Below are positions 4,225 to 57,022 of a stretch of DNA of 64,000 nucleotides, piece by piece. Positions within the stretch are counted from its first letter, which is position 1. Each line of letters starts with the position of its first letter. Below the pieces are notes generated by a model that saw only the letters and a list, made by a program, of their open reading frames with translations, was not told the DNA's origin and made no database searches. The stretch spans positions 20,530 through 84,529 of the forward strand of contig JBBTUV010000004.1 of NCBI GenBank assembly GCA_038063535.1, in the 5' to 3' direction. The DNA is from Patescibacteria group bacterium (GTDB lineage Bacteria > Patescibacteriota > Minisyncoccia > Phycocordibacterales > UBA9973). The position numbers and the translations under genes were made by a program.

Positions 4225-4227
4225 ATG

Positions 4228-4309: not shown

Positions 4310-4341
4310 AATATTCTTTTTTCGATCTACATTCTTCTCCG

Positions 4342-4416
4342 TGGAGGCCTAGGTGGGAATCGCACCCACGTATAAGAGTTTTGCAGACTCTTGCCTTACT
4401 ACTTGGCGACTAGGCC
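4342..4416 (-). tRNA. tRNA-Cys (anticodon GCA), CCA encoded
   Basis: The acceptor is GGCCTAG/CTAGGCC, the anticodon stem-loop is AGAGT-CTGCAAA-ACTCT and the T-arm is GTGGGTGCGATTCCCAC. It is the only tRNA in the cluster with a genomically encoded CCA. Confidence 0.8.
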
Positions 4417-11943: not shown

Positions 11944-12011
11944 ATTTTTATCGACGTTTAACTACGACCTTTTTTATAGACTATTACAAACTGCCCAATA
12001 AGTCCAATTTG

Positions 12012-12094
12012 TGCGCCGGGAGGGATTCGAACCCCCGTAGCCCGAAGGCGATTGGTTTACAGCCAATTGCAATTGACCACTCTGCCACCGACGC
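12012..12094 (-). tRNA. tRNA-Tyr (anticodon GTA), long variable arm
   Basis: The acceptor is GCGTCGG/CCGGCGC, the anticodon stem-loop is ATTGG-CTGTAAA-CCAAT, the variable arm is CGCCTTCGGGCTAC and the T-arm is GGGGGTTCGAATCCCTC. Confidence 0.85.
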
Positions 12095-15284: not shown

Positions 15285-15313
15285 ATTTCCTCTTTTTATA
15301 CTAAAATATAGGC

Positions 15314-23684: not shown

Positions 23685-24851
23685 ATGGGAATTTTTTCTC
23701 GCGGGAGTAAAAAGACATTGGCGGCGGTTTTTGACATTGGTTCGTCTTCCGTCGGGGGAGCGCTAGTCGCGCTTTCGAAAGGTAAGGCGCCGGAGATACT
23801 CTTTGCCGCGCGTGAGCCGATACTCGTTCTTCCTGAACTTGACCCGGATCAATTCCTTTCGCTTACCCTGAAATCTCTCGAGGCCGTGGCGGCGGCTGTC
23901 GCGGCCAGTAAAGCAGGAGCACCGGAGAAAATTTTCGCTGTCCTCGGTTCACCCTGGTACAGCTCGCAGACTCGGATGATCCGGATGGAGAAGAACAGCG
24001 AATTTGCTTTTTCCGCGAAGTTGGCGGACGAACTGGTCGCCAAGGAACTTACTCAATTTAGAGAGGAGCACGAGCTCAAATATCTCGCTGACGAGGAAAA
24101 GGTTGTGCCGATCGAACTGAAAAACATGAGGATCGCCTTAAACGGATATGTTACGCCCGAGCCGATCGGCAAACGCGCTTCAAAGCTCGAGATGACGATA
24201 TTCGTTTCAATGAGCGGCCGGCAATTTCTCAACAAAGTGAGAGAAACGATGGGAAAACATTTTCACCGGGACGAGGTTAAGTTCTCGTCTTTCCTTATGG
24301 CGTCTTTCACCGCGGTGCGTGATCTTTATCCAGCTTCGCAGTTTCTCCTCTTAGATGGGGGAGGCGAGCTGACCACGGTTTCGCTCGTGAAAGGGGATAT
24401 TCTCTCCGAGTCGGGCACCTTTGCCATTGGGCACAACTTTATTATCCGGGAAACAGCACGGGAGCTGGGAAAGACCCTTCCCGACGCGAAGACACTTTTC
24501 ATGCTTTTCAAAGAGGGGCATGAGAGCGAACGGCAGAAAGTGAAGCTTGAGAATGCGATCGGCGCAGCGCGGGCCAAATGGCTCGAAGCTTTCCAGAAGT
24601 CGCTTGCCACTCTCTCGGGAGATATCTCCATTCCCTCGGATGTTTATGTGACGGCAGACCCGGACTTCGCCGAATTTTTCGCCGATGCGATCAAGGGCGA
24701 GCAACTCTCGCAGTACACGCTGACCGATTCGAAACTCCAGGTCCATCTCTTCAATCCGGATTCGATCACCGGCAAAATGTCGTTTTCGGCGAACGCCCGG
24801 CATGACCCGATCCTCTCGCTTGAGTCGGTTTATATTAATCGCTATCTTTGA
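23685..24851 (+). CDS. Actin-fold ATPase of the FtsA/PilM family
   Basis: The phosphate-1 motif is AAVFDIGSSSVGGAL and the phosphate-2-like motif is LLLDGGGELTTVSLV. 388 aa. Confidence 0.6.
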   Translation: MGIFSRGSKKTLAAVFDIGSSSVGGALVALSKGKAPEILFAAREPILVLPELDPDQFLSLTLKSLEAVAAAVAASKAGAPEKIFAVLGSPWYSSQTRMIRMEKNSEFAFSAKLADELVAKELTQFREEHELKYLADEEKVVPIELKNMRIALNGYVTPEPIGKRASKLEMTIFVSMSGRQFLNKVRETMGKHFHRDEVKFSSFLMASFTAVRDLYPASQFLLLDGGGELTTVSLVKGDILSESGTFAIGHNFIIRETARELGKTLPDAKTLFMLFKEGHESERQKVKLENAIGAARAKWLEAFQKSLATLSGDISIPSDVYVTADPDFAEFFADAIKGEQLSQYTLTDSKLQVHLFNPDSITGKMSFSANARHDPILSLESVYINRYL

Positions 24852-24863
24852 TAAAATATACCA

Positions 24864-26147
24864 ATGCCTAAAAATTTGCTTCAAGACTTCCGAATGAAAA
24901 AGGGTTCCCCCGAGGAAAAAGCCCCGCCACTCTCTCCGACTCCGCCAGCGAGGAATACGGAAAGCTATGAAAACTATTCCGACTTTTCCTACTCAGGAGA
25001 GGAGCCCGCTCCAGGCAGCCGGTCCAAGTACGGTCTCTGGGTTGTGGCGCTGGTTTCAGTCGGTTTTCTTCTCTTCGCCCTCTCCTTTTTATTTACGAAG
25101 GCGAAAGTCGTAGTTGTTCCGAAAAGCTTCGATGAAAATTTGAGCTTGAACCTTTCTGCGACGAAAGATTCGGCGGATCCCACCGCACTTTCTTACGATT
25201 TGGTAGTGCTTGAGGGCATCGAAGAAAAAAGCGTGGCGGCTGGTACGGAGGAAGATGTCCGCGTGCCTGCGACCGGACGAGTGGTGATTTACAATGCTTT
25301 CAGTACGGCTCCGCAGCTACTGGCGATCGAGACGCGTCTCGAGGGCTCGAATGGGAAAATTTACAAAACCGATACCAAGCTCACAGTCCCTGGCATGAAA
25401 GGAAGCTCCCCGGGCTCGATCGAAGTCGGCGTCTACGCAGCCGAAGCCGGGCCGGATTACAATTCCGAGCCGCTTGATTTTAAGATATTCGGATTCAAAG
25501 GAACACCGAAGTATACGAAGTTCTACGCGCGAGGGAAGGGCGAGATCTCAGGAGGATTCATCGGCAAGCGTACGGTGGTCGCTCCGGCGGACCGCGATCG
25601 GGCGGTAGCTGAGCTCAGGATCGGCCTCCAATCAAAACTTTACAAGAAGGCAGCGGATCAATTGCCCGCCGGATTTATTCTTTTCAAGGGCGCAACGGTG
25701 CTCGATGTGCCTGAATCAGGAATTTCCGCGGAGCCAGACGCGAGCGGTGGAACAACGCTCTCGATCAGGGGCACTCTCTCCGGAGTTCTTTTTGACGAGA
25801 AGAAACTCGCGAAGAAAATTGCGGAGAATACCGTCCCGAAATACAACCAGGAAGATGTTTTTATTCCGAACTTCGGCTTGCTCGACTTTTCCCTGACCGG
25901 ACTTGTCGGGGCGCTGGCGGAAGCGAACAACGTGGTTTTCAATCTCACCGGCCCGGCCAAGATCGTTTATGGGCTAGATCAGAAGAAAATAGCCGAAGAT
26001 CTTGCCGGAAAGGCGAAAAAAGAATACAATGCGATTCTCTCCACTTACCCCGTCGTCTCCGCCGAGCTCGTCCTGCGACCTTTCTGGAAAACCTCTTTCC
26101 CCGAGAAACCGGAAGACATCGAGATCAAGGTGAACTACCCGCAGTAA
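24864..26147 (+). CDS. Bitopic membrane protein (cytoplasmic N-tail, one TM helix, ~340-aa extracytoplasmic domain); partner of the FtsA/PilM-like gene
   Basis: The TM helix is YGLWVVALVSVGFLLFALSFLF. This is the topology expected of FtsQ/PilN/PilO-type partners but larger. No family recognised. Confidence 0.55.
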   Translation: MPKNLLQDFRMKKGSPEEKAPPLSPTPPARNTESYENYSDFSYSGEEPAPGSRSKYGLWVVALVSVGFLLFALSFLFTKAKVVVVPKSFDENLSLNLSATKDSADPTALSYDLVVLEGIEEKSVAAGTEEDVRVPATGRVVIYNAFSTAPQLLAIETRLEGSNGKIYKTDTKLTVPGMKGSSPGSIEVGVYAAEAGPDYNSEPLDFKIFGFKGTPKYTKFYARGKGEISGGFIGKRTVVAPADRDRAVAELRIGLQSKLYKKAADQLPAGFILFKGATVLDVPESGISAEPDASGGTTLSIRGTLSGVLFDEKKLAKKIAENTVPKYNQEDVFIPNFGLLDFSLTGLVGALAEANNVVFNLTGPAKIVYGLDQKKIAEDLAGKAKKEYNAILSTYPVVSAELVLRPFWKTSFPEKPEDIEIKVNYPQ

Positions 26148-29063: not shown

Positions 29064-29414
29064 ATGCGGCACCATAACGTCAATCGAAAATTCGGACGAG
29101 TACGCAAGCAAAGGAAAGCACTTCTTTCCTCGCTGGCTCTCAATCTCATGGTGCGCGGGAAAATAAGAACAACGGAAGCGAAAGCGAAAGAACTCCGGCC
29201 ATTCGTGGAGAAGCTAGTAACCCTCGCGAAAAGCGGCTCGCTCGCGTCGCGGCGGCTTATCATCTCACGGCTTTCGAACCGGAGCCGAGAGACAGGGAAG
29301 CTCTTTACTCTTGCGGAACAATACAAAGAAAGAAAAGGCGGCTATACACGAATATTGAAACTTGGAAGGCGGGTGTCCGACAGCGCGAAGATGGCGATAA
29401 TAGAATTTGTATGA
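29064..29414 (+). CDS. rplQ: Ribosomal protein L17
   Basis: MRHHNVNRKFGR and the conserved core are present. 116 aa. Confidence 0.95.
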   Translation: MRHHNVNRKFGRVRKQRKALLSSLALNLMVRGKIRTTEAKAKELRPFVEKLVTLAKSGSLASRRLIISRLSNRSRETGKLFTLAEQYKERKGGYTRILKLGRRVSDSAKMAIIEFV

Positions 29415-29752
29415 AAAAGATCGATGCAAAAGGAAGAACCCTTGGCAGAGTCGCCTCCGAAGCGGCGGTAATTCTTATGGGGAAGGACAAAGCGAAATTC
29501 GAACGCAATGTTTATTCCGGTGAAGCGGTAGAAATCATAAATTCTTCGAAAATAAGGATTACCGCAAAAAAACTTGACCAAATCATGCACTTGCGCTATT
29601 CCGGTTATCCAGGGGGATTACGAAGGATGAAGGGGACGGAAGTGCGGGAAAAGAAAGGCATGAAGGAGCTCCTCTCTCATGCAATATACCAGATGCTTCC
29701 TTCCAACAAACTGCGAAGAGAAATGATGAAAAATCTAAAGATAGAAGAATAA
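29411..29752 (+). CDS. rplM: Ribosomal protein L13 (short form)
   Basis: GRTLGRVASEAA...GK aligns to L13. 113 aa, overlapping rplQ by 4 nt. Confidence 0.8.
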   Translation: MKKIDAKGRTLGRVASEAAVILMGKDKAKFERNVYSGEAVEIINSSKIRITAKKLDQIMHLRYSGYPGGLRRMKGTEVREKKGMKELLSHAIYQMLPSNKLRREMMKNLKIEE

Positions 29753-30172: not shown

Positions 30173-30751
30173 ATGGCTGACGAACCCAGACAAAACGACG
30201 AAACAGCGCCGGAGGAGGATGACGTTGTCGAATTTGAATTTAACGAGGATGGGGAAGAGGATCTGAAGAAAACCTTGAAGAAACTGCGGGCGGACCTCAA
30301 GCAGACGAAAAAAGAAAAAGAAGAATACTTGACCGGTTGGCAGAAGGAGCGGGCGGATTTTATCAATTACAAAAAGGAGGAGGATAATCGCAAGGCGCTT
30401 TTCTCGGAAGCGGTGCGCGAGCGCATACTTACTCGTTTTCTTTCTATCATAGACAACTTCAATATGGCTATGGGCGATCGGGCGGCCTGGGAGAAGGTGG
30501 ACAAGAATTGGCGCGTGGGGATTGAGCACATATATTCAGAGCTCGGTAAAATTTTCGAAGAATATGGAGTCAAAGCAATTGGCGAAGTCGGAGAAATTTT
30601 CGACCCGAGCATTCATCAGTCTATTGACGTTGTGCCGACTCCCGATAAAGAAAATGATCACAAAGTCGCCGATGTCATCCAGAGGGGCTACCGCCTCGGC
30701 GAGCGCATCCTCCGCCCCGCGCGAGTGAACGTATATGAGCACAAAGGGTAA
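30173..30751 (+). CDS. grpE: Nucleotide exchange factor GrpE (no adjacent dnaK)
   Basis: An acidic N-terminus is followed by a coiled coil and the C-terminal beta domain (DFINYKKEEDNRKA..., VIQRGYRLGERILRPARV). Confidence 0.9.
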   Translation: MADEPRQNDETAPEEDDVVEFEFNEDGEEDLKKTLKKLRADLKQTKKEKEEYLTGWQKERADFINYKKEEDNRKALFSEAVRERILTRFLSIIDNFNMAMGDRAAWEKVDKNWRVGIEHIYSELGKIFEEYGVKAIGEVGEIFDPSIHQSIDVVPTPDKENDHKVADVIQRGYRLGERILRPARVNVYEHKG

Positions 30752-31511
30752 ATCCAAGAGACCCAAAGCGATCGTGATGTCCGGGTACGGGCTTAATTGC
30801 GAGGAGGAGACGGCGTTCGCATTTGGGCGTGCCGGTGGAGGAGTGGATATTGTGCATATCAATGACTTAATAAAGAAGCCTAAAATGCTCGCAGGTTACG
30901 ATATTCTCGCTTTCCCGGGCGGCTTTGCCTACGGCGACGATACGGGGAGTGGCAAGGCCTATGCGCTCAAATTCAGGAACCATTTGGCGAAGGAGCTAAA
31001 GGCGTTCCTCGCGCGCGACACTCTTATCATCGGCATTTGCAACGGCTTTCAGATAGTCACGAATCTCGGCATTCTCCCCGGCGCGCTTACTTACAATAAA
31101 AATCCTATCTACATGGACAGATGGGTGGATCTCAAGGTTGTCGGAAAGTCCCCGTGGCTTACCGGCATAAAAAATATTTCATTACCGATTGCTCACGGGG
31201 AGGGCAGGTATGTGGTAGGTAGAGGCAAGAAACCATCTGTCGCTTTAAAATATGTTAAAGGAGAGATTTGTAAATTCCAGAGTCTCGAACCGAACCCGAA
31301 CGGCTCGGAGAGTGCGATTGCAGGGGTTCTCGGTTATAATGGAAGAGTGCTCGGCCTTATGCCGCATCCCGAGCGGGCGATGTTTTTCCACCACTCGCCG
31401 CTCTGGCAATTGAAGAAGGAAAAATTAAAAAGGGGAGCCGCGAAAATTCCGGAGGATGGCGACGGAATTCTTTTATTTAAAAACGCAGTAAACTATTTTG
31501 TCGGAGCTTAA
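30735..31511 (+). CDS. purQ: Phosphoribosylformylglycinamidine synthase, glutamine amidotransferase subunit
   Basis: A class-I GATase triad is present (GICNGFQ Cys, HGEGR, MPHPER). Confidence 0.85.
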   Translation: MSTKGKSKRPKAIVMSGYGLNCEEETAFAFGRAGGGVDIVHINDLIKKPKMLAGYDILAFPGGFAYGDDTGSGKAYALKFRNHLAKELKAFLARDTLIIGICNGFQIVTNLGILPGALTYNKNPIYMDRWVDLKVVGKSPWLTGIKNISLPIAHGEGRYVVGRGKKPSVALKYVKGEICKFQSLEPNPNGSESAIAGVLGYNGRVLGLMPHPERAMFFHHSPLWQLKKEKLKRGAAKIPEDGDGILLFKNAVNYFVGA

Positions 31512-32922
31512 AGAAAAATGCGGAATAGTTGGAATTTACGCTCCGGGTCGGCCGGTTTCCCGCCTATGCTTTTTCGGTCTCTTCGCGCTCCAGCACCGTG
31601 GGCAAGAAGCTTCGGGGATTACTACGAATGCGGATGACAAACTGAAAACCCACATCGGGGCGGGTCTCGTAGGGCAAGTTTATAAAGAAGAAGATATTGA
31701 TAATCTCTCTGGCTACATCGGCATCGGGCATAATCGATATTCAACTTCGGGCGGGAGCGTCTTCAAGCACGCCCAGCCAGTTTTAAATGATGACGAAACG
31801 TTCGCTCTGGCTCACAACGGAAATCTCCCGAGCGTTACAGCCCTCAAAGATTTTTTGAAATCCGAGCGAGCGCTCAAGGAGGACAGGAACGACTCGGAAC
31901 TTATCTCGGACGCCGTAGATGTTTATCTCAAGAAGGGAATGCGGCTCGAGGGTGCGGTGGAGAAAGTTTTCCCCCTTCTTACCGGCGCATATGCGCTGGT
32001 GATGATGACGCGTGACACGCTTGTGGCCCTACGCGACCCGTTTGGCATGCGGCCGCTTTGTATGGGAAGTCTAGGTTCTTCAGGGGAAGGTTTTGTGGTC
32101 GCATCGGAGACCTGCGCTCTGAAGACGATCGAGGCCGGCTTTATTCAGGAGATTCTACCCGGTGAGATGGTGGTGATAAACCAGGAAGGACTTAAGTGCC
32201 ACACCCTCGCCCCCGCGACGCCTAAGCATGATATTTTCGAATACGTTTACTTCGCCCGGCCGGATTCCGTGATGAACGGAAAGCTTATATACAGTGTCCG
32301 CAAGGACTTCGGCAAAGCCCTGGCCCGGGAATTTATAAAGAAGCACGGTAAAAAGTTCGAGATAGACGCTGTCGTGCCCGTGCCCGACACTTCCATGCCT
32401 GTGGCGATCGGCTTTTCCGAAGCGAGCGGGATACCGCTCGAGCTTGCGCTCGTCAAGAACCGCTACGTACACCGGACATTTCTCGAGCCGGACCAGGAGT
32501 CGCGCCGTGCGAGCGTTGCCCTCAAGCTCATACCTCAGCCTGAAGTACTCGCAGGCAAACGCATCGCTGTGATAGACGACTCCATCGTGCGCGGCCATAC
32601 TTCAAGGAAATTGGTGCAGAGGCTCTATGAGAACGGCGCCAAAGAAGTGCACCTGGTCATCTCTTCGCCACCGATAAGATATCCGGATTTTTACGGCATC
32701 GACACGCCGAAGCAGACGGAACTGATAGCGGCCGGTAAGACTGTGGAAGAAATGCGGGAATGGCTTGGCGTGACCTCGCTTATGTTTCTCTCGCTCGAAG
32801 GCTTAGTGGAGGGGGTAGGCATACCGAAAGAAAATCTCTGCACCTCGTTTTTCACCGGCGAGTACCCTATAGACTTGAAAGAGCGCAAAAGTGAGGTCAG
32901 CTACGATGTCCCAAAAGATTAA
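31498..32922 (+). CDS. purF: Amidophosphoribosyltransferase
   Basis: An N-terminal nucleophile CGIVG follows the initiator Met, and there are Ntn and PRTase domains (VIDDSIVRGHT). Confidence 0.95.
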   Translation: MSELKEKCGIVGIYAPGRPVSRLCFFGLFALQHRGQEASGITTNADDKLKTHIGAGLVGQVYKEEDIDNLSGYIGIGHNRYSTSGGSVFKHAQPVLNDDETFALAHNGNLPSVTALKDFLKSERALKEDRNDSELISDAVDVYLKKGMRLEGAVEKVFPLLTGAYALVMMTRDTLVALRDPFGMRPLCMGSLGSSGEGFVVASETCALKTIEAGFIQEILPGEMVVINQEGLKCHTLAPATPKHDIFEYVYFARPDSVMNGKLIYSVRKDFGKALAREFIKKHGKKFEIDAVVPVPDTSMPVAIGFSEASGIPLELALVKNRYVHRTFLEPDQESRRASVALKLIPQPEVLAGKRIAVIDDSIVRGHTSRKLVQRLYENGAKEVHLVISSPPIRYPDFYGIDTPKQTELIAAGKTVEEMREWLGVTSLMFLSLEGLVEGVGIPKENLCTSFFTGEYPIDLKERKSEVSYDVPKD

Positions 32923-33438
32923 ATTGGCATTGCTGGTTCACGCAGGAGGAACCCAAACAAACTTGAAAGCGATACAAGAAGCCGTCCAGAAAGAGCGGGT
33001 CAATGCCGAAATTGCCGCCGTAGTTTCGGACGCGGAAGCTGTCTTGCCTGCGCTCACAGAAGCATCGCCCGACTATATCTGCCTGGCGGGGTGGAAAAAA
33101 ATTATTCCCGATGAATTAGTCCAAAAATATCAGAATCGAATTTTGAATATTCATCCGGGTTTAATTCCGGATAAAATGGACGGGCAAGTCTTGAATCCCG
33201 ACGGGACGTATGCTCTCTGGAACAAAGGCATGTATGGCGAGAGAGCGATCCAGAATTTTCTCGACAAGAAAGCAACCTATGCTGGCTCCTCAATCCATTT
33301 TTTGACTACAGAATTTGATTTCGGGCCAGTCCTAGGCAGAACATTTGAGAAAATTGAAGAGGGAGACACGGTAGAAACTTTGTATACTCGTCTGAAGAAA
33401 AAAGAAAATGAATTGTATGTAGAGGTGCTGGAAAAATT

Positions 33439-33451
<13 letters not shown>
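32906..33451 (+). CDS. purN: Phosphoribosylglycinamide formyltransferase
   Basis: The formyltransferase motif ILNIHPGLIP is present. The start is set at MSQKIKLALL. Confidence 0.85.
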
Positions 33452-38688
<5,237 letters not shown>

Positions 38689-38689
38689 T

Positions 38690-40138
38690 ATGGAGAAGAA
38701 AAAAATCAAAACGGCGCTGATTTCGGTTTTTAATAAAGAGGGTCTTACGCCCGTTACCGAGCTCCTCAAAAAAAACGGCGTAAAAATTATTTCTACCGGC
38801 GGCACGGCGGAATTTATACGGAAGCTCGGTGCAGATGTCACAGAAGTGGAAAGCCTAACAAATTTTCCTTCAGTTTTCGGCGGGCGAGTGAAGACATTGC
38901 ACCCAGCGATCTTCGGGGGGATCTTGAATCGCCGAGATAATCCTGAAGACCAAAAATCCAAATATGCCCATAAAATAGAGGATATTGACTTGGTTATTGT
39001 GGATTTGTATCCATTCGAAGAGAAACCAGAGATCGAGACTATAGACATCGGCGGGGTGTCGCTTATCCGCGCGGCGGCAAAGAATTATGAGGATGTGGTG
39101 GTAATCTCTTCTCGCGAGCAATACAAAGACCTAAAAATCGAAACGACGCTCGAAGAAAGGAAAAAACTGGCAGGGGAGGCGTTTGCGCGGACTTCAAGTT
39201 ATGATTTTGCTATCCGAGAATATTTCCAGAGTATACCGCTTCGTTACGGCGAGAACCCGCACCAGAACGCGAGCTTTGTCGGCGACTTAACCGAAAGTTT
39301 TTCGCAACTTCATGGCAAAGAACTCTCTTACAACAACCTCCTCGACACCGAAGCGGTGATTGCCGTAATAAATGATTTCAAAGAGCCAGCTTTTGCGATC
39401 GTAAAGCACATGAATACTTGCGGGCTTGCGGTACGGCCGGAAGGGAAACTTTTGGAAGCATATCAGGCCGCGTATGCAGCTGATCCGGTTTCGGCATTTG
39501 GCGGGATTCTTGCGGCGAATCGTGAGATAGGGGAGGATGTTGCCAAACTCATCCGCGAGCAGAAACTTTTTGTAGAAGTCGTAATCGCGCCCGGTTTTTC
39601 CGAGGAGGCGCTTAAAATTTTAGAACAGAAGAAAGATTGCCGTATTTTACTTTGGCACGAGCCCCAACTACCCAAGAAACAAATTCGCAGTTCTTTTACT
39701 GGAATGCTCGTGCAAGATCGGGATATGCATGTTGAAACTGAAAAAGATTTGAAAGTTGTAACAACGAGAGCGCCGACAGAAAGAGAAAAAGAAGACTTGC
39801 TTGTGGCAGCTGTCGCCGTGAAGCATTTGAAATCAAACGCTATCGCGCTTGTCAAAGACAAAACACTTATCTCGATGGGCTGCGGACAGACTGCGCGCGT
39901 GGACGCGCTCAAACAGGCGATAGAGAAAGCTAAGAATTTCGGCTTACTACTCGAGGGCGCGGTAATGGCATCGGAGGCGTTTTTTCCTTTCCCGGATTGC
40001 GTGGAAATTGCCGGCGGGGCTGGTATCAGTGCCGTCATCCAGCCAGGTGGCTCCAAGAATGATCAAGCCTCAATTGACATGGCAAACAAGCTCGGTATGG
40101 CTATGGCCACCACAGGATATAGGCATTTTAAGCATTAA
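38690..40138 (+). CDS. purH: Bifunctional AICAR transformylase / IMP cyclohydrolase
   Basis: It has an MGS-like N-domain (ALISVFNKEGL) and an AICARFT C-domain. 482 aa. Confidence 0.95.
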   Translation: MEKKKIKTALISVFNKEGLTPVTELLKKNGVKIISTGGTAEFIRKLGADVTEVESLTNFPSVFGGRVKTLHPAIFGGILNRRDNPEDQKSKYAHKIEDIDLVIVDLYPFEEKPEIETIDIGGVSLIRAAAKNYEDVVVISSREQYKDLKIETTLEERKKLAGEAFARTSSYDFAIREYFQSIPLRYGENPHQNASFVGDLTESFSQLHGKELSYNNLLDTEAVIAVINDFKEPAFAIVKHMNTCGLAVRPEGKLLEAYQAAYAADPVSAFGGILAANREIGEDVAKLIREQKLFVEVVIAPGFSEEALKILEQKKDCRILLWHEPQLPKKQIRSSFTGMLVQDRDMHVETEKDLKVVTTRAPTEREKEDLLVAAVAVKHLKSNAIALVKDKTLISMGCGQTARVDALKQAIEKAKNFGLLLEGAVMASEAFFPFPDCVEIAGGAGISAVIQPGGSKNDQASIDMANKLGMAMATTGYRHFKH

Positions 40139-40155
40139 TATGGTAGGATATTTTC

Positions 40156-40680
40156 ATGATATCCAAAAATCCGCTGGTGGGCATAATCATGGGCTCGGAT
40201 TCGGATTTGGAGGTGTTCGCCGAGGCGGCTAAGGTTCTCGAAGAATTCGGCATCTCTTATGACATGACGGTGGGCTCCGCGCACCGCTCGCCGGAGCGAG
40301 TGCAAAAATATGCTGGAGGAGCAGCGGGGCGCGGTATCAAAGTTCTCATTGCCGGCGCCGGAGGCGCCGCGCACCTAGCAGGGGTCATCGCTGCGCACAC
40401 GACCCTCCCCGTCGTGGGCCTCCCGGTCAAAGCAAAGTCGCTCGACGGACTTGATTCGCTCCTCTCAACCGTTAACATGCCGCCGGGTGTGCCGGTCGCG
40501 ACTGTGGGTATCAATGCCGGCAGAAACGCCGGATTACTTGCAGTACAGATTCTCGCCCTCTCTGACGCGATCCTTGTAGACAAACTTTCCTCATACAAGG
40601 AAAAAATGGCGCGCGAAAATGAAGAAAAAGGCAAAAAAATGAGCGAACTCGGCTATAAAAAATACCTCGATAATAAATAA
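40156..40680 (+). CDS. purE: N5-carboxyaminoimidazole ribonucleotide mutase
   Basis: The motifs GSDSDL, AHRSPE and AGGAAHLAGV are present. Confidence 0.9.
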   Translation: MISKNPLVGIIMGSDSDLEVFAEAAKVLEEFGISYDMTVGSAHRSPERVQKYAGGAAGRGIKVLIAGAGGAAHLAGVIAAHTTLPVVGLPVKAKSLDGLDSLLSTVNMPPGVPVATVGINAGRNAGLLAVQILALSDAILVDKLSSYKEKMARENEEKGKKMSELGYKKYLDNK

Positions 40681-41684
40681 TGAAGAGCGATTATGCACAA
40701 GCTGGAGTGGACATAGATAAAGGGGAAGAAGTAGTGCGAAGAATAAAGAAATACCTGCCCGATATAGGAAGCTTCGGCGGGCTTTTTGATTTAAGTGGAA
40801 TTTTGAAATCCTACAAACGTCCCTTCTTGGTGCAGAGTATCGACGGCGTCGGTACCAAGCTCACCGTGGCCAAGATGATGAATAAATACGATACGGTCGG
40901 CGAGGATATCGTAAACCACAGCGCCAATGACATTGTGGCTATGGGCGCGCGGTCCCTCACGTTCCTCGATTATGTCGCCAATGAAAAACTGGAGCCCGAT
41001 GTGATGGAGCAAATTGTCGCGGGTATGGTCCGGGCTTGCAAAGAGGCGGGCATAGCTCTCGTCGGCGGAGAAACCGCGGAGATGCCGGGGACTTATGCGC
41101 CGGGCGAGCACGACATCGCCGGCTGCATCACCGGCATCGTTGAGAAAGATAAAATTATTACCGGGGAAAAAATTAAAGAAGGTGACGTAATTTTTGGATT
41201 TCCTTCTTCGGGTCTGCATACCAACGGCTATTCTCTTGCCCGCAAATTACTTTTCGATGTTGCTGGGCATGATGTAAGCACGCAAGTTCCCGAACTCGGC
41301 GAATCGGTGGGCGAGGCTCTGCTTCACGTCCACACAAATTACAGCGGGCCTGTCCTCTCGCTCCTTGGTGCTGGCGTGGACGTAAGAGGTATTGCGCATA
41401 TTACCGGTGGGGGATTTATCGAGAATATTCCTAGGGTTCTGCCAAAAAATTTGGACGCGGAAATCAGAAAGGGAACCTGGCCGATACTTCCGATATTTTC
41501 ACTTCTGCAAGAAATTGGCAAAGTTCCCGATTCGGAGATGTATAGAACATTTAATATGGGGATTGGGCTTGTTTTTGTAGTTGCTCCGGCGGATAAGGAA
41601 AGGGTTGAAAAAATGCTTAAAGGTTATAAAATTTACGGGATTGGTAAAATTATCAGGGGGGAGAAGAGAGTTAAATTTATATGA
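40680..41684 (+). CDS. purM: Phosphoribosylformylglycinamidine cyclo-ligase (AIR synthetase)
   Basis: The AIRS N and C domains are present with DGVGTK. Confidence 0.95.
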   Translation: MKSDYAQAGVDIDKGEEVVRRIKKYLPDIGSFGGLFDLSGILKSYKRPFLVQSIDGVGTKLTVAKMMNKYDTVGEDIVNHSANDIVAMGARSLTFLDYVANEKLEPDVMEQIVAGMVRACKEAGIALVGGETAEMPGTYAPGEHDIAGCITGIVEKDKIITGEKIKEGDVIFGFPSSGLHTNGYSLARKLLFDVAGHDVSTQVPELGESVGEALLHVHTNYSGPVLSLLGAGVDVRGIAHITGGGFIENIPRVLPKNLDAEIRKGTWPILPIFSLLQEIGKVPDSEMYRTFNMGIGLVFVVAPADKERVEKMLKGYKIYGIGKIIRGEKRVKFI

Positions 41685-42649
41685 TCGACATCGAAACAAT
41701 AAAAAAACACATCGGGGACGTGGTAAGGGAAACGGATTTTCCGTTTCTCGGCGAGAAAAAGGTCGGCAAGGTGCGGGACGCTTATGCCAAGCCCGATCGC
41801 ATCACTCTTGTCTCTACTGACCGGCATTCTTCCTTCGACCGCATTATCGCGCATATTCCCTTCAAGGGAGAAGTTCTCAACCGAACGAGTCTTTTTTGGT
41901 TTGATAAAACCAAAGATATTATTCAGAACCACGTTATTTCCTCACCCGACCCGAATGTAGTGATGGTGAAAAAGTGTAAAGTGATCCCTGTCGAGATGGT
42001 AGTGCGTGGATATATTACTGGCGTAACTTCCACAAGTCTTTGGACGCACTACGCGGCGGGCGAGCGCGATTTCGGGGATTTTGTGCTTCCGGATGGAATG
42101 AAAAAGAACGAGAAATTAATTGAGCCGGTGTTAACGCCCACCACCAAGAGCGAGGACCATGACCGGCCGCTCACCTCGAAAAAAATCTTGGAAGAGGGAA
42201 TAGTTGAGAAAGATTTATGGGAGAAGATGGCAGATACCGCACTCAAACTTTTTAGGCGCGGACAGGAGATAGCGTTTCGGCAAGGACTCATCTTGGTGGA
42301 CACCAAGTATGAATTCGGCTTGGATGAGAAGGGGGAGCTGACATTAATCGACGAAATTCACACCCCGGATTCTTCGCGCTGGTGGAAGGCAGTTTCCTAC
42401 GAAGGGCGCTTCAACGCCGGCGAAGAACCGGAATATTTTGATAAAGAATTTTTGCGACTCTGGTTCAAGGACCACTCCGATCCCTACAAGGACAAAGTTC
42501 TGCCGCCCGCGCCGCCGGAGCTAGTAGCGGAACTCTCCCGGCGATATATCGAAATATATGAGATGCTCACCGGCAAGAATTTCGACCACGATCTCTCGCA
42601 GACGACTCTTGAGCGCATTGCCAAGAATTTAAAAAACTATGTCGCTTAA
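41681..42649 (+). CDS. purC: SAICAR synthetase (long form)
   Basis: The SAICAR synthetase fold motifs (GKVRDAY, LVDTKYEFG) are present. Confidence 0.9.
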   Translation: MIDIETIKKHIGDVVRETDFPFLGEKKVGKVRDAYAKPDRITLVSTDRHSSFDRIIAHIPFKGEVLNRTSLFWFDKTKDIIQNHVISSPDPNVVMVKKCKVIPVEMVVRGYITGVTSTSLWTHYAAGERDFGDFVLPDGMKKNEKLIEPVLTPTTKSEDHDRPLTSKKILEEGIVEKDLWEKMADTALKLFRRGQEIAFRQGLILVDTKYEFGLDEKGELTLIDEIHTPDSSRWWKAVSYEGRFNAGEEPEYFDKEFLRLWFKDHSDPYKDKVLPPAPPELVAELSRRYIEIYEMLTGKNFDHDLSQTTLERIAKNLKNYVA

Positions 42650-43994
42650 TTCCAGCTTAAATTCTCTGTCGCCGATAGACGGAAGGTACAGGAAGTTCAG
42701 CGAAGTTCTGGCGCCGTATTTCAGCGAGCGAGCGCTTATGCGCCATAGGATCATAGTGGAAGGGGAGTATCTGATCGCGCTTTCGGAAGCAAGAGGAGTT
42801 AACCTCCGTAGGCTCTCGACCAAAGAGAAGAAATTTATTCGTGGGCTATATAACCTCAAGGAAAAAGATGCGGAGCGAATCTCGGAGCTGGAAAAGACAA
42901 CCGATCATGACGTCAAAGCGCTCGAATACTATATGAAAGAGAAGTTAACACGGACGTCGCTTAAAGATGTCTCCGAATGGCTCCATTTCGCGCTTACCTC
43001 CGAGGACACGAACAATATCGCTTACGCGCTCATGCTCTCGGAATCGCTCGAGAAAGTTATGGTCGCGAAAATAGAAGAGATTGCCAAGGTACTTAACAAT
43101 CTTGCAAAACGATACAAGAGTCTCCCGATGCTTGCACGCACCCACGGCCAGCCGGCCAGCCCCACCACCTTCGGCAAGGAGATGAAAGTTTTTGCCGGGC
43201 GGCTCGAGAAGCAACTAAGTGTTTTACGAAATACTAAAATAGAAGCTAAGTTGAACGGCGCCACGGGAAACTGGAATGCGCATGTGATCGCATATCCAAA
43301 AGTAAACTGGATTAAATTCTCTGAAAATTTTATCCGAAAGCTCAAACTTGAGCCCAACTCGATAACTACCCAAATCGAATCACACGATAGCTATATTGCA
43401 GTCTTCGACACATTACGCCGGATAAATACGATCCTAATCGGATTCAATCAAGATATCTGGCGCTACATTTCAGATGATTGGATAGGGCAGACTTCAATTG
43501 GCTCGGTTGGTTCCTCCACCATGCCGCACAAGATTAATCCGATTAAATTCGAGAACAGCGAGGGGAATCTCGGTGTCGCGAACGCACTCTTTGAATTCTT
43601 CGCCCGCAAGCTCCCAATTTCGCGTCTGCAGCGCGACCTTTCCGATTCAACCGTCGAGCGGAATTTCGGAGTCGCTTTTTCTCATTCGCTAATTGCTTAC
43701 GAGTATTTACTGAAAGGCCTAAGCACGATAAAAGTAAATGAGAAAAAGGTAAAAGAAGACTTAAATAATCATCCGGAAGTTATCGCCGAGGCGATACAGA
43801 CAATTCTGCGACGCGAAGGCGCAAGGATGCCGTATGAAGAGTTGAAAGCCCTGACCCGCGGGAAAAAAGTTACCCTCGAAGATTTCCGAAAATTCATCGA
43901 TAATTTGGATGTCTCCGAAAAAGTCAAAAAAGAATTACGTAAAATTACTCCCGCGAACTACACTGGGCTCGCTTCTCGTTTGACTTCTCCCTAG
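42639..43994 (+). CDS. purB: Adenylosuccinate lyase
   Basis: Fumarate lyase family with the SSTMPHKINP signature. 451 aa. Confidence 0.95.
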   Translation: MSLNSSLNSLSPIDGRYRKFSEVLAPYFSERALMRHRIIVEGEYLIALSEARGVNLRRLSTKEKKFIRGLYNLKEKDAERISELEKTTDHDVKALEYYMKEKLTRTSLKDVSEWLHFALTSEDTNNIAYALMLSESLEKVMVAKIEEIAKVLNNLAKRYKSLPMLARTHGQPASPTTFGKEMKVFAGRLEKQLSVLRNTKIEAKLNGATGNWNAHVIAYPKVNWIKFSENFIRKLKLEPNSITTQIESHDSYIAVFDTLRRINTILIGFNQDIWRYISDDWIGQTSIGSVGSSTMPHKINPIKFENSEGNLGVANALFEFFARKLPISRLQRDLSDSTVERNFGVAFSHSLIAYEYLLKGLSTIKVNEKKVKEDLNNHPEVIAEAIQTILRREGARMPYEELKALTRGKKVTLEDFRKFIDNLDVSEKVKKELRKITPANYTGLASRLTSP

Positions 43995-44095: not shown

Positions 44096-44455
44096 ATGAA
44101 GAAGTTGGCAATAATTTTTCTCCTGGTGGCAATTGTAATTCCCGCCATTTCTTTTGCTCAAAGCGGTGATACGGTAGATCGAGCCGGGGATCCGAACCCC
44201 GACGTGCCGACGAGCTATATACGAAGTTCGGAGATACGAAATATCCAAACGATAGTCGGCGAGAAAACTCCTGATTTCATTAAAAAGCCGATAATAGCCT
44301 CGATAACCTGGCTTGAGAATTTTCGCCTTACCGGAGCAGAGAGGAGCGAAGGCCAGTTCTACCATTTCGTTTTCGCAAACGTATACGTCTTCTACGGCAT
44401 ATTTATCGTGATCGTCCTTTTGGTGCTCCGCACGATTTGGCGTATAATTTTTTAA
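44096..44455 (+). CDS. Hypothetical secreted/membrane protein (signal peptide plus C-terminal TM helix)
   Basis: 119 aa with an N-terminal MKKLAIIFLLVAIVIPAISFA and a C-terminal hydrophobic helix. Confidence 0.5.
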   Translation: MKKLAIIFLLVAIVIPAISFAQSGDTVDRAGDPNPDVPTSYIRSSEIRNIQTIVGEKTPDFIKKPIIASITWLENFRLTGAERSEGQFYHFVFANVYVFYGIFIVIVLLVLRTIWRIIF

Positions 44456-44724
44456 TGGCCCGGCGGATCGCGTTCTCCCTAATACTTCTTACCTCGGTAC
44501 TCTTTTTTCCTTTCTGGCTCTCGGTTATTTTAGCCTTATTCGGTATGATTTATTTCCGGCTTTATCTCGAAGCAATCACAGTTTTCTTCGTCTCCGACCT
44601 TCTTTTTGGAGTTCCGCAGGCGAGATTTGGGGGCATCACTTTTCTCTCCGCGCTCGTTTCTGCAGTTGTTCTCTTTTTAATAGAATTCATTAAAAGGCGT
44701 TCAATCTTATCTGCAAAGCAATGA
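44437..44724 (+). CDS. Small polytopic membrane protein upstream of PBP2 (possibly MreD-like)
   Basis: 95 aa with three hydrophobic segments. Its position immediately upstream of the PBP2 gene matches the mreD-pbpA arrangement, but no sequence-level call is possible. Confidence 0.45.
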   Translation: MAYNFLMARRIAFSLILLTSVLFFPFWLSVILALFGMIYFRLYLEAITVFFVSDLLFGVPQARFGGITFLSALVSAVVLFLIEFIKRRSILSAKQ

Positions 44725-50855: not shown

Positions 50856-51045
50856 CAAGGATAGAAAGAAACGGAACGGAAATAAGTTCTAAAGGGAAGT
50901 GGTGGAGCGCAAACACACTTGTTTTTGCGTCTATCTTTTGATTTCTCTTTATTTTCTAAACTAAAAAAGGAATCCAAAAATCGGCGCATGAGCGTCGATT
51001 TTGTTCTTTAACAGTATACATAAACCTAAACAAAAAGGAGAAGAC

Positions 51046-55376: not shown

Positions 55377-56265
55377 CTACTCCGGCCCAATTTTCATTAT
55401 CACTGCGGCGCTTCTCTGGGCCTTTGACGGGCTTATCCGCCAGCATCTTTACACCCTGCCGCCTATCACTATCATATTCTTTGAGCATCTCTTCGGGCTT
55501 GTCATCCTTTTCCCGTTTGTCGTAAAGCTGGTTCTCCGGACCCGATTCACGAAGCGAGAATTCTGGCTACTCGTTTTGATTTCCGTTCTCTCTGGACTTC
55601 TGGGAACACTTTGGTTTACCACGGCGCTTGGAAAAGTGCATTTCATCTCGCTTTCGGTCGTATTTCTTCTCCAAAAACTCCAGCCGATTTTTGCGATCTC
55701 ATCTGCGTCACTTCTCCTGAAAGAGAAATTCGAGAGGGGATACATTCCTTGGGCGGTGCTCGCGCTTGTGGCTGCATACTTTGTCACTTTCCCGACAGGC
55801 AAAGTTGACCTCGCAACCGGCGCAGGTACCGCAGTAGCCGCGCTTTATGCGCTCGGTGCAGCATTCGCCTGGGGAACCTCTACCACGTTTTCAAAAATGC
55901 TCCTCGGAAAAGTTGAAGCAAAAGCGAGCACTTTTTTCAGATTTCTTTTTACTCTCATTATCGCGCTTTCCGTCCTCTTGATTTTCGGCTACGGCTCATC
56001 GCTTTCGGCCCCAACCACCACACAATTCGGATTTCTCGCGCTCATCGCCGTCTCAACTGGCATGGTCGCGCTTCTAATTTATTACAAAGGTCTTGCCAAG
56101 ACTCCCGTCCACATTTCAACGATTCTTGAGCTTACGTTTCCATTTATCGCGATTATCCTGGATAAAATAGTTAATGGCACAAGCCTAAATGCCGTTCAGT
56201 GGGTTGCAGCACTGGTTCTCGTCTATAGCATTTATAAAATTTCTAAACTGCGCGAGGGAGTTTAA
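55369..56265 (+). CDS. EamA/DMT-superfamily transporter
   Basis: There are about 10 TM helices in two EamA repeats. Confidence 0.8.
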   Translation: MSNYSGPIFIITAALLWAFDGLIRQHLYTLPPITIIFFEHLFGLVILFPFVVKLVLRTRFTKREFWLLVLISVLSGLLGTLWFTTALGKVHFISLSVVFLLQKLQPIFAISSASLLLKEKFERGYIPWAVLALVAAYFVTFPTGKVDLATGAGTAVAALYALGAAFAWGTSTTFSKMLLGKVEAKASTFFRFLFTLIIALSVLLIFGYGSSLSAPTTTQFGFLALIAVSTGMVALLIYYKGLAKTPVHISTILELTFPFIAIILDKIVNGTSLNAVQWVAALVLVYSIYKISKLREGV

Positions 56266-57022
56266 GGATTTTTACGCCTTTTATTTTTTGTGGAATCGAA
56301 TCAGTCACGAAAAGTTCTCCGCAGTTTCTTTTTATTTTGTCAGCCATACTAGGTATAGCGAAAACCCCATGCGTCGCCCCGACGATTATTTTCTTCGCGC
56401 CGAGTCGCTTCAGGTGCTTGATCGCGTGGAGGATGGTGCCGCCGGTCGAGATGATGTCGTCCAGGATGCAGACGTTTTTGCCGCGGGCGTCCACCTTACT
56501 TTCCATCTTATGGATCTCGTGCGCATCCTTGCGAGTTTTCTTAAAGGCATGTTCGGACATATATGCGGTGCCGTGGTCCGGGGAGATGATCAGAAATTCT
56601 TCCTTTCCGAAAAATTTTTTCGCGTGAGCGCGAAGTAGCGGTCCGGCGGAGCGATTCTCGATTAGAAGCCCCGTCCGCACGAACCTGCCGGGGCGGGGGA
56701 GGAAGTGGCAGTCGTAAGTGATTAATCTCTTAACTCCGGCACTTTTGAGAAGTCTGCACAGCACGTCTGCACTTACTGCTTCGCCTTTTTTGTTTTCCTT
56801 ATCCTGCCGGGCGTAGGGGAGATAGGGGACGAGGACGGATATCTTGCGCGTCGATTTTCTAACTGCGGAAAGAGTAAGCAGAAGCTCGAAAATATTTTTC
56901 TCGGGGTCGGGGTAGAGCCTTTTGAACAGAGTGACTTTTTTGTTCTTTAGAGAACTTACGTTTGCGACCCGAATATAAGATTCGCCGTCTGGGAAAAGCT
57001 TCGATAAAATAATCGGGCGCAT
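56243..57022 (-). CDS. prs: Ribose-phosphate pyrophosphokinase (PRPP synthetase), short form
   Basis: YLPYARQDK and the PRPP-binding site DDIISTGGT are present. 259 aa. Confidence 0.85.
   Translation of the reverse strand: MRPIILSKLFPDGESYIRVANVSSLKNKKVTLFKRLYPDPEKNIFELLLTLSAVRKSTRKISVLVPYLPYARQDKENKKGEAVSADVLCRLLKSAGVKRLITYDCHFLPRPGRFVRTGLLIENRSAGPLLRAHAKKFFGKEEFLIISPDHGTAYMSEHAFKKTRKDAHEIHKMESKVDARGKNVCILDDIISTGGTILHAIKHLKRLGAKKIIVGATHGVFAIPSMADKIKRNCGELFVTDSIPQKIKGVKILKLPRAV

What the first reader, a model, noticed from the sequence alone, without database searches (positions are those of the whole stretch)
30735..43994. Near-complete de novo purine biosynthesis cluster in an otherwise reduced genome, with purL/purS/purK absent locally
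The cluster is purQ, purF, purN, purD, (purA, guaB convergent), guaA, purH, purE, purM, purC and purB, with prs at 56243. CPR-type bacteria usually lack de novo nucleotide synthesis, so a 13-kb contiguous pur/gua cluster is notable. purQ is present without the adjacent purL/purS it needs, and purE is present without purK (class II-like PurE or ATP-independent route). The IMPDH lacks the regulatory CBS pair.
Basis: partly seen in the sequence, partly recalled or inferred. Interest (0 to 1): 0.5.

Follow-up and report, generated by a model that had tools for sequence, protein, structure and literature searches.

The report
Ordinary Nomurabacteria purine operon, purL displaced
This is the standard purine-nucleotide synthesis operon that many bacteria of the Nomurabacteria group (small-genome 'CPR' bacteria) carry, so it is not a rarity, but in this organism and its closest relatives the purL gene has moved away from its usual place and the IMP dehydrogenase has lost its regulatory domain.

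Summary
The gene calls are confirmed. Window 30735-43994 holds purQ, purF, purN, purD, purA(-), guaB(-), guaA, purH, purE, purM, purC and purB, packed with overlapping or nearly abutting ends, and a short prs lies at 56243-57022(-). The contig is from a Candidatus Nomurabacteria/Paceibacteria (CPR) bacterium in Hainich groundwater. The cluster is not exceptional. The same gene order recurs in about 160 fetched loci from Nomurabacteria, Kaiserbacteria, Doudnabacteria and others. One study reports a complete de novo purine pathway in 32% of CPR genomes. No separate purS is expected: relatives carry a ~990-aa PurL with a built-in N-terminal domain, directly upstream of purQ. Here, and in the three closest relatives, grpE sits there instead. 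No purL or remnant was found across ~82 kb. PurQ is intact and well conserved (80-85%), so purL most likely lies elsewhere in the genome, but I could not locate it. PurE is class I by sequence, not class II. purK is absent from most related clusters, a pattern already known from methanogens. IMPDH has a clean excision of the CBS pair, shared with the closest relative, and such short forms recur elsewhere. Verdict: a new member of a known kind, of low to moderate interest.

The parts
30173..30751 (+). grpE. It occupies the position where purL sits in almost all relatives, and its stop overlaps the purQ start by 17 nt.
   Evidence: NCBIfam GrpE. Spacing and exact junction match in four assemblies. 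Relatives L095, L096 and L099 have grpE-unk550-purQ.
30735..31511 (+). purQ, the glutaminase subunit of FGAR amidotransferase. The triad is intact: Cys in GICNGFQ, His and Glu in MPHPER.
   Evidence: NCBIfam and Pfam GATase_5. Alignment. 80-85% identity to the closest relatives.
31498..32922 (+). purF, amidophosphoribosyltransferase (TTG start). The Cys nucleophile follows a 7-residue leader.
   Evidence: TIGR01134, 442 bits. Sequence.
32891..33451 (+). purN, GAR formyltransferase, a divergent lineage-specific subtype. The N-x-H and Asp motifs are kept.
   Evidence: TIGR00639, 93 bits. Alignment. Fused to purD in L088.
33439..34701 (+). purD, GAR synthetase.
   Evidence: TIGR00877, 494 bits.
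34698..36038 (-). purA, adenylosuccinate synthase.
   Evidence: NF002223, 404 bits.
36038..37141 (-). guaB, IMP dehydrogenase (367 aa). The Bateman/CBS pair is replaced by a 2-3-residue linker. The catalytic Cys loop [11 protein letters not shown] and the DRYFQ Arg-Tyr dyad are present.
37165..38688 (+). guaA, GMP synthase.
   Evidence: NF000848, 484 bits.
38690..40138 (+). purH, bifunctional AICAR formyltransferase/IMP cyclohydrolase.
   Evidence: NF002049, 581 bits.
40156..40680 (+). purE, class I type (SAHRSP and AGGAAHLAGV), with the A77/V79/T107 signature of PurK-less clusters.
40680..41684 (+). purM, AIR synthetase.
   Evidence: TIGR00878, 371 bits.
41681..42649 (+). purC, SAICAR synthetase (long form).
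   Evidence: NF009251, 416 bits.
42639..43994 (+). purB, adenylosuccinate lyase.
   Evidence: NF006764, 633 bits.
56243..57022 (-). prs, PRPP synthetase. At 259 aa it lacks about 30 N-terminal residues of the canonical enzyme, and a stop codon lies just upstream of its start.
   Evidence: Pfam. Upstream translation.

Best explanation
The region is the vertically inherited purine operon of the Nomurabacteria/Paceibacteria lineage, and it makes IMP, AMP and GMP from PRPP. Shown: intact genes for steps 1-3 (PurF, PurD, PurN), the glutaminase half of step 4 (PurQ), step 5 (PurM), the mutase/carboxylase of step 6 (PurE), steps 7-10 (PurC, PurB, PurH), both branch pathways (PurA with PurB, and GuaB with GuaA) and Prs. 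Also shown: in nearly all relatives a ~990-aa PurL lies immediately upstream of purQ. That PurL is a small-PurL-type synthetase core with an N-terminal domain and linker like those of large PurL, so no separate PurS is needed. Inferred: in the ancestor of this sub-clade (the window plus L095, L096 and L099), one rearrangement broke the operon between purL and the next gene and joined the rpoA-rplQ-rplM-rpsI-grpE block to it. This genome later lost the intervening Cys-rich gene, so grpE now overlaps purQ. purL most likely survives elsewhere in the chromosome. Step 6 runs without PurK, as in most related clusters. The class I-type PurE would then use N5-CAIR formed non-enzymatically from AIR and CO2/bicarbonate, or carboxylate AIR directly at high CO2, which saves one ATP. 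IMPDH has lost its Bateman module, so it should be catalytically active but free of adenine/guanine-nucleotide allosteric control.
For: Gene identities. Lineage: hits named Nomurabacteria or Paceibacterota. Conserved order purL-(unk550)n-purQ-purF-purN-purD-[purA guaB guaA purH]-purE-purM-purC-purB-mrdA. PurL lies upstream of purQ in 75 of the 76 genome loci that have upstream sequence. PurL domain make-up. The three closest relatives all show grpE-unk550-purQ with no purL. PurQ identity to them (80-85%) equals or exceeds that of PurN, PurA, GuaB and GuaA, and its triad is intact, which argues for continued selection and hence a partner. The junction is exact in four assemblies. PurE is class I by motif and by PDB similarity. 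purK is absent from most clusters but present in 9 loci. Class I-like PurE without PurK is documented and attributed to high CO2 (PMC3261824). The IMPDH deletion and intact catalytic motifs. Best PDB matches are engineered, CBS-deleted bacterial IMPDHs aligned end to end.
Against: purL of this genome was not found. It is absent from about 82 kb (the window plus both flanks). None of the 120 best PurL homologues has the GC-biased composition expected for this genome. So 'purL elsewhere' is an inference from PurQ conservation and parsimony, not an observation. One relative (L063) shows that these clusters can decay: it lacks purL, purE, purM, purC and purB. No biochemical data exist for PurK-independent function of this PurE type. 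purQ and purN score below NCBIfam cutoffs.
Confidence: 0.72

Rival explanations
1. purL has really been lost in this sub-clade. The pathway is then broken at FGAR to FGAM. The remaining genes would persist because the loss is recent, because FGAM or a later intermediate is obtained from a host, or because an unrecognised enzyme pairs with PurQ.
For: No purL or remnant in about 82 kb, nor in the three related contigs. No PurL hit with this genome's composition in the top 120. L063 shows that cluster decay occurs in this lineage.
Against: The purL-less arrangement is old enough to be shared by four lineages that differ by 15-20% in PurQ. Even so, purQ and every other pur gene remain intact and conserved, with full catalytic motifs. 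Only about 82 kb of this genome was examined, and the contig alone is about 183-187 kb. No alternative to PurL is known (own knowledge).
Confidence: 0.12
2. The cluster was acquired en bloc by lateral transfer into an otherwise reduced genome.
For: Individual genes in the cluster do show replacement by distant homologues across the lineage. Identities to the window are bimodal for PurF (about 50% or 67%), PurM (about 26% or 65%), PurA (about 35% or 65%) and PurN (about 29% or 57-70%).
Against: The cluster's GC (0.47-0.50) matches its flanks. The same gene order, including the non-purine neighbours u95 and mrdA, is shared across Nomurabacteria, and most of it with Kaiserbacteria and Doudnabacteria. 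All best hits are CPR. The mosaicism is gene by gene, not en bloc.
Confidence: 0.03
3. The PurK-less PurE subtype (A77/V79/T107) is a functional AIR carboxylase, that is, class II chemistry on a class I scaffold, and not a mutase fed by spontaneous N5-CAIR.
For: Three active-site-loop positions separate the 7 PurK-linked PurEs from the 38 PurK-less ones. Two of these shift the same way in the PurK-less methanogen enzyme 2ywx (V79, S107) and in true class II enzymes (G or S at 77, S at 107).
Against: The class I hallmarks H45, R46 and H75 are retained, and overall similarity to class II is low. The CPR correlation may simply reflect two gene lineages. Only one independent replicate was seen. 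PMC3261824 reports that E. coli PurE converts AIR to CAIR without PurK at high bicarbonate and that over-expressed PurE complements a purK deletion, so no special adaptation is required.
Confidence: 0.2

Closest known systems
Purine operons of published Candidatus Nomurabacteria MAGs, for example RIFCSPHIGHO2_01_FULL_41_71 (MFTQ01000004.1, locus L009) and nzgw MAG JAHFNT010000002.1 (L090)
   Same: Same genes in the same order and orientation, with the same downstream neighbours (two small membrane ORFs and mrdA). Protein identities are 62-77%. There is no separate purS, and no purK in most.
   Different: Those clusters start with a ~970-1000-aa purL (often followed by 1-3 Cys-rich ~570-aa genes) upstream of purQ, and their IMPDH is ~490-500 aa with CBS domains. 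Here purL is replaced by grpE and IMPDH is 367 aa.
FGAR amidotransferase architectures: large PurL (about 1300 aa, E. coli/Salmonella type) and the small PurL + PurQ + PurS complex (Bacillus/Thermotoga type)
   Same: PurQ aligns both to stand-alone PurQ models and to the C-terminal glutaminase domain of large PurL. The relatives' PurL core matches small PurL.
   Different: The lineage's PurL carries an N-terminal domain and the FGAR-AT linker as in large PurL, but keeps the glutaminase as a separate gene. This is a two-gene intermediate form. In this window only the glutaminase gene is present.
Class I-like PurE without PurK in methanogens, Desulfurococcales and some Thermococci (Brown et al. 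2011, PMC3261824; M. jannaschii PurE, PDB 2ywx)
   Same: Class I motifs (SAHR, H75) with no purK. V79 and a hydroxyl residue at position 107 are shared with 2ywx. A CO2/bicarbonate-rich habitat is plausible for a groundwater organism.
   Different: This one is bacterial (CPR) and also has Pro77 to Ala. PurK-bearing and PurK-less clusters coexist within the same lineage.
CBS-deleted IMPDHs: engineered bacterial constructs (for example PDB 4my1, 6mgu, 4q32) and naturally short chains (PDB 3ffs at 400 aa, 1eep at 404 aa)
   Same: The catalytic barrel aligns end to end in one stretch, and the Cys loop and Arg-Tyr dyad are present. Many natural 340-390-aa relatives exist.
   Different: Here the excision is natural, recent (sub-clade specific) and nearly scarless, with a 2-3-residue linker. 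27 other relatives in the lineage keep the full Bateman module.

Membership tests
Bacterial de novo purine pathway (PurF, D, N/T, L+Q(+S), M, K+E, C, B, H) | All enzymes for PRPP to IMP are encoded | tested here: not met
   Nine components are present. PurL and PurK were not found in the window or in about 18.6 kb of flanks. The rest of the genome could not be searched, so genome-level completeness is unknown.
Bacterial de novo purine pathway | Branch enzymes to AMP (PurA, PurB) and GMP (GuaB, GuaA), plus the PRPP supply (Prs) | tested here: met
FGAR amidotransferase complex | Glutaminase subunit with a Cys-His-Glu triad | tested here: met
   GICNGFQ and MPHPER are conserved in the alignment with relatives.
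FGAR amidotransferase complex | Synthetase subunit PurL (two AIRS/AIRS_C pairs) encoded with or near PurQ | tested here: not met
   No hit in about 82 kb. It is present directly upstream of purQ in 75 of 76 genome loci that have upstream sequence.
FGAR amidotransferase complex | PurS or an equivalent N-terminal domain | tested here: inconclusive
   There is no purS ORF. The relatives' PurL has a ~190-aa N-extension with the FGAR-AT linker that aligns to the large-PurL N-region. This genome's own PurL was not seen.
Class I PurE (N5-CAIR mutase) | 40s-loop SAHR (His45, Arg46) and 70s-loop His75 | tested here: met
   GSAHRSPE and AGGAAHLAG. Closest solved structures are N5-CAIR mutases, E 1e-58 to 1e-33.
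Class I PurE (N5-CAIR mutase) | Canonical 70s loop AAHLPGM and Ile107, as in the class I enzymes from M. tuberculosis, S. aureus, B. anthracis and T. maritima | tested here: not met
   The window has A77, V79 and T107, as do 35-37 of the 38 PurEs from clusters without purK.
Class I PurE (N5-CAIR mutase) | Partner PurK supplying N5-CAIR | tested here: not met
   No purK in about 82 kb. purK is present in only 9 of 80 genome loci and 0 of 80 metagenome loci. Its presence elsewhere in the genome was not testable.
Class II PurE (AIR carboxylase) | SAHK 40s loop and AGRSN(G/A)L 70s loop (human 2h31, T. denticola 3rg8) | tested here: not met
   The motifs are absent. E-values to class II structures are only 6e-15 to 1e-9.
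IMP dehydrogenase | Catalytic Cys loop and flap Arg-Tyr dyad, which distinguish it from GMP reductase | tested here: met
   [11 protein letters not shown] and DRYFQ. IMPDH models score 462 bits against 225 or less for GMP reductase models.
IMP dehydrogenase | Bateman module (CBS pair) inserted in the barrel | tested here: not met
   About 125 residues are replaced by a 2-3-residue linker. The deletion is shared with L095 only.
CPR / Candidatus Nomurabacteria (Paceibacteria) | Closest homologues of several genes come from named members of the lineage, with shared synteny | tested here: met
   No rRNA or marker-set phylogeny was done.

The most novel reading that the evidence does not exclude
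This sub-clade has truly lost PurL while keeping a conserved, catalytically intact PurQ and every other purine gene. That would imply an unknown FGAR to FGAM activity, or an unknown partner for PurQ, in CPR bacteria. Alongside this, its PurK-less PurE subtype (A77/V79/T107) would be an evolutionary intermediate that performs class II-type direct AIR carboxylation on a class I scaffold.
Probability: 0.08. Interest if true: 0.65.

Novelty: new member of a known kind. Interest (0 to 1): 0.22.

Why it matters
The main value is as a correction. A purine operon is not evidence of anything unusual in a CPR genome, because the Nomurabacteria/Paceibacteria lineage carries it routinely. Annotation pipelines or readers that flag 'PurQ without PurS or PurL' or 'PurE without PurK' as pathway gaps will misjudge these genomes. 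PurS is built into the lineage's PurL, and PurK-less class I PurE is a known, CO2-dependent strategy. The smaller points could be useful to specialists. The first is a natural, nearly scarless Bateman-domain excision in IMPDH. The second is a three-residue PurE signature that tracks PurK absence. The third is gene-by-gene replacement by distant homologues inside a conserved operon. Together they bear on how reduced genomes shed regulation and ATP costs. None of them opens a long-standing question.

Tried and rejected
(1) Locating this genome's purL.
- An exact-protein look-up of the 258-aa PurQ failed. The 244-aa form and PurE gave only Hainich and Logan contigs.
- Walking is limited to 10 kb beyond window genes. 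The left flank and right flank hold no purL.
- Look-ups of two PurL hits with the same source signature (P0209, P0213) turned out to be other species with purL next to purQ.
- I screened the 120 best PurL hits by GC-type amino-acid composition. A regression on locus GC (r = 0.93) predicts about 1.13 for this genome, and the observed maximum is 0.82, so its PurL is not among them.
- I built a GC-shifted consensus query to fish for it. The same trick on PurQ ranked the window's own protein 175th of 176, so I abandoned it.

(2) The 68-aa ORF at 30522-30728 just upstream of purQ looked like a possible purS, but it is an out-of-frame ORF inside grpE.

(3) The ORFs at 44096-44455 and 44437-44724 after purB are not purine genes. 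They are small membrane proteins conserved next to mrdA, with no family hits.

(4) No riboswitch or other regulatory RNA reached threshold. Promoter and terminator scans gave no more sites than chance.

(5) The Cys-rich ~570-aa family stayed unassigned. There were no Pfam or NCBIfam hits, the AlphaFold2 model was mediocre (pLDDT 66), and Foldseek against the PDB found nothing (best E about 7). The afdb50 library was unavailable.

(6) A literature search for naturally CBS-less IMPDH returned nothing directly useful.
Full report
**What is there.**

| Gene | Coordinates | Strand |
|---|---|---|
| purQ | 30735-31511 | + |
| purF | 31498-32922 | + |
| purN | 32891-33451 | + |
| purD | 33439-34701 | + |
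| purA | 34698-36038 | - |
| guaB | 36038-37141 | - |
| guaA | 37165-38688 | + |
| purH | 38690-40138 | + |
| purE | 40156-40680 | + |
| purM | 40680-41684 | + |
| purC | 41681-42649 | + |
| purB | 42639-43994 | + |

Nine of the twelve exceed the curated NCBIfam cutoffs. purQ, purN and guaB fall below them, but context makes all three unambiguous. Gene boundaries overlap or nearly abut, with gaps from -32 to +23 nt, so the cluster reads as two or three tightly coupled transcription units. A short prs (259 aa) lies at 56243-57022(-). No riboswitch or other Rfam family is present apart from six tRNAs elsewhere in the window. Promoter-like and terminator-like sites are no more frequent than in shuffled sequence.

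**Where it comes from.** Identical DNA occurs in several assemblies of Hainich groundwater metagenomes (ERZ12926xx 'Hain_H41') and in Logan assemblies ERR3858120, ERR3858136 and ERR3858137. NCBI holds the PurQ as MEK7569683.1 from a 'Patescibacteria group bacterium' MAG, on a 183-kb contig. The best homologues of PurQ, PurL and an unrelated conserved gene are named Candidatus Nomurabacteria or Paceibacterota. The window also shows traits I recognise as typical of CPR (own knowledge):
- tandem T4SS-type pilin genes;
- a sigma-70 region 4/HARE-HTH protein;
- shortened housekeeping proteins: IF-2 at 492 aa, AlaRS at 536 aa and MetK at 312 aa.

The standard genetic code applies, since TGA is used as a stop. 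So the 'reduced-genome lineage' premise holds.

**Is the cluster remarkable for that lineage? No.**
- PurQ has more than 8000 database homologues, and the best-listed ones are about 70% identical.
- A scan of GTDB species representatives returned 80 loci and a scan of metagenomes another 80.
- Local annotation of these shows one conserved architecture: purL, then 0-3 copies of a Cys-rich ~570-aa gene, then purQ-purF-purN-purD, an optional purA(-)-guaB(-)-guaA-purH block, purE-purM-purC-purB, two small membrane ORFs and mrdA.
- The same core is seen in Kaiserbacteria, Doudnabacteria and Peregrinibacteria loci.
- PMC11608272 reports a complete de novo purine pathway (to IMP) in 32% of 399 CPR MAGs. 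Two further papers note purine genes in CPR.
- The cluster's GC (0.47-0.50) matches its flanks.

Lateral acquisition en bloc is therefore not supported. What does occur is gene-by-gene replacement by distant homologues. Across relatives, identity to the window is bimodal for PurF (about 50% or 67%), PurM (about 26% or 65%), PurA (about 35% or 65%) and PurN (about 29% or 57-70%).

**purL and purS.** The ~970-1040-aa ORF upstream of purQ in relatives is PurL. It has the FGAR-AT linker plus two AIRS/AIRS_C pairs. Its core (residues 195-971) matches small PurL, and a ~190-residue N-extension aligns with the N-domain and linker of large PurL. This explains why no purS gene exists in any of these clusters.

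PurL is adjacent to purQ in 75 of the 76 genome loci that have enough upstream sequence. L075 was recovered by tblastn. The one exception, L063, is a visibly decayed cluster.

In this window grpE sits at that position, preceded by rpoA, rplQ, rplM and rpsI, and its stop codon overlaps the purQ start by 17 nt. The junction is identical in four assemblies from different sequencing runs. The three closest relatives all show grpE, then one Cys-rich gene, then purQ, with no purL:
- L095, from GCA_964373945.1, PurQ 85% identical;
- L096, PurQ 80% identical;
- L099, PurQ 83% and PurF 84% identical.

The displacement is therefore a fixed trait of a sub-clade, and this genome later lost the Cys-rich gene at that site as well. 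tblastn with eight diverse PurLs finds no remnant in the window, in 10 kb to the left, in 8.6 kb to the right, or in L095 and L096.

I could not locate this genome's purL. Three things make 'purL elsewhere in the chromosome' the most likely reading, at about 0.8:
- PurQ keeps its Cys/His/Glu triad.
- PurQ is as conserved within the sub-clade (80-85%) as PurN, PurA, GuaB and GuaA.
- One breakpoint between purL and the next gene explains the whole pattern.

Real loss stays possible, at about 0.1.

**purE and purK.** PurE has the class I 40s loop (GSAHRSPE) and His75 (AGGAAHLAG). It matches solved N5-CAIR mutases at E 1e-58 to 1e-33, but class II enzymes (T. denticola 3rg8, human PAICS 2h31) only at 6e-15 to 1e-9. 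The 'class II-like' suggestion is therefore rejected.

purK is absent from about 82 kb here and from most related clusters. It is present next to purE in 9 genome loci, and one example was confirmed at 438 bits against a cutoff of 318. Class I-like PurE without PurK is already documented for methanogens, Desulfurococcales and some Thermococci. It is explained there by high CO2, non-enzymatic N5-CAIR formation, or PurE acting on AIR at high bicarbonate (PMC3261824).

One new detail emerged. Three active-site-loop positions separate the 7 PurK-linked PurEs (P77, M79, I107, E. coli numbering) from the 38 PurK-less ones (A77, V79, T107, with one to three exceptions each). Real PDB sequences give this picture:

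| Enzyme | Pos. 77 | Pos. 79 | Pos. 107 |
|---|---|---|---|
| Class I from M. tuberculosis, S. aureus, B. anthracis (PurK-dependent, from memory) and T. maritima | P | M | I |
| M. jannaschii 2ywx (PurK-less methanogen) | P | V | S |
| Class II (human 2h31, T. denticola 3rg8) | G / S | V / F | S |

This hints at adaptation to PurK-independent function. It rests, however, on two gene lineages within CPR plus one outside replicate.

**IMPDH.** An alignment with relatives shows a clean excision of the whole Bateman/CBS module, about 125 residues. The sequence ...VRKVKGKS joins directly to LLVGAAIGV.... The catalytic loop [11 protein letters not shown] and the IMPDH-specific Arg-Tyr dyad (DRYFQ) are intact. 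Only L095 shares the deletion (370 aa), while 27 other relatives are 484-600 aa.

The best PDB matches are engineered CBS-deleted bacterial IMPDHs, aligned end to end in one stretch. Naturally short chains exist too (1eep, 3ffs). In an exhaustive search of 1.84 billion cluster representatives, 27 of the top 150 are single-stretch, full-length matches of 339-392 aa. Of the 35 representatives between 335 and 400 aa, 17 retain both catalytic motifs. Natural CBS-less IMPDHs are thus recurrent. The inferred consequence is loss of nucleotide-dependent allosteric control. This fits the general shedding of domains in this genome's proteins.

**Verdict.** This is a new member of a well-populated, already annotated kind of operon, with three modest lineage-specific twists: purL displaced, a PurK-less class I PurE subtype, and IMPDH without its CBS pair. 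The one open point that could raise its interest is whether purL is really gone. That can be settled by a simple HMM search of the full MAG.

Noticed in passing
window 60891-62627 (+). Also L095 661-2247, L096 1678-3339, L090 12908-14650, L088 12994-14652, L014 1447-6679 (three copies): A Cys-rich ~530-600-aa protein family with no Pfam or NCBIfam match. It has 6180 database homologues, and every listed hit is labelled hypothetical or unnamed. One to three tandem copies sit between purL and purQ in many Nomurabacteria. The window's copy instead lies between a D-Ala-D-Ala carboxypeptidase gene and mraY-ftsW-murG, and it has orthologues at 63-87% identity. Both termini carry zinc-ribbon-like CxxC...CPxCR modules. 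The AlphaFold2 model is mediocre (pLDDT 66) and Foldseek against the PDB finds nothing.
   Followed up: partly
window 40156-40680 (PurE residues 75, 77, 105): A three-residue signature (A77/V79/T107, E. coli numbering) separates PurEs in clusters without purK from PurK-linked PurEs (P77/M79/I107). It is partly shared with the PurK-less M. jannaschii enzyme and with class II PurEs.
   Followed up: partly
window 31498-32922, 32891-33451, 34698-36038, 40680-41684, compared with loci L008-L099: Within an otherwise syntenic operon, PurF, PurN, PurA and PurM each occur as two or three very divergent types across close relatives. For example, PurM is about 65% or about 26% identical to the window's. 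The window's PurF is 77% identical to L009's and 84% to L099's, but only 53% to that of its otherwise closest relative L095. This indicates gene-by-gene replacement.
   Followed up: partly
L063 (JANPIZ010000008.1, 17.4 kb): A Nomurabacteria locus with a decayed cluster: a truncated purQ match, then purF-purN-purD running straight into the mrdA neighbourhood. purL, purE, purM, purC and purB are absent. It shows that the operon can erode in this lineage.
   Followed up: no
window 56243-57022 (-): PRPP synthetase is only 259 aa. It lacks about 30 N-terminal residues of the canonical enzyme, and a stop codon lies immediately upstream, so the short length is not a start-codon miscall.
   Followed up: partly
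window 4725-6203 (-), 19598-20536 (+), 22063-23673 (+), 29411-29752 (+): Several housekeeping proteins are much shorter than I recall their usual bacterial forms to be: IF-2 at 492 aa, SAM synthetase at 312 aa, alanyl-tRNA synthetase at 536 aa and L13 at 113 aa. This suggests general domain shedding, of which the CBS-less IMPDH is one case.
   Followed up: no
window 70-1134 (+) and left flank L092 8895-11391: A tandem array of at least six small genes with the T4SS-type pilin domain (PF18895).
   Followed up: no
window 3977-4416 (-): A tight cluster of five tRNA genes (Leu-CAG, Leu-TAG, Lys-CTT, Leu-TAA, Cys-GCA), with a lone tRNA-Tyr at 12011-12094 (-).
   Followed up: no
window 23685-26147 (+), 51001-52482 (+), 15296-16684 (-): Four ORFs of 388-493 aa with no Pfam or NCBIfam match. 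Two of them (388 and 427 aa) are adjacent, between the alaS-like gene and the ribosomal-protein/rpoA block.
   Followed up: no
whole window compared with related loci: This genome is about 50% GC, while most related Nomurabacteria loci are below 44%. The bias is visible in amino-acid composition: the window's PurQ has the highest GARP/FYMINK ratio of 120 homologues.
   Followed up: partly
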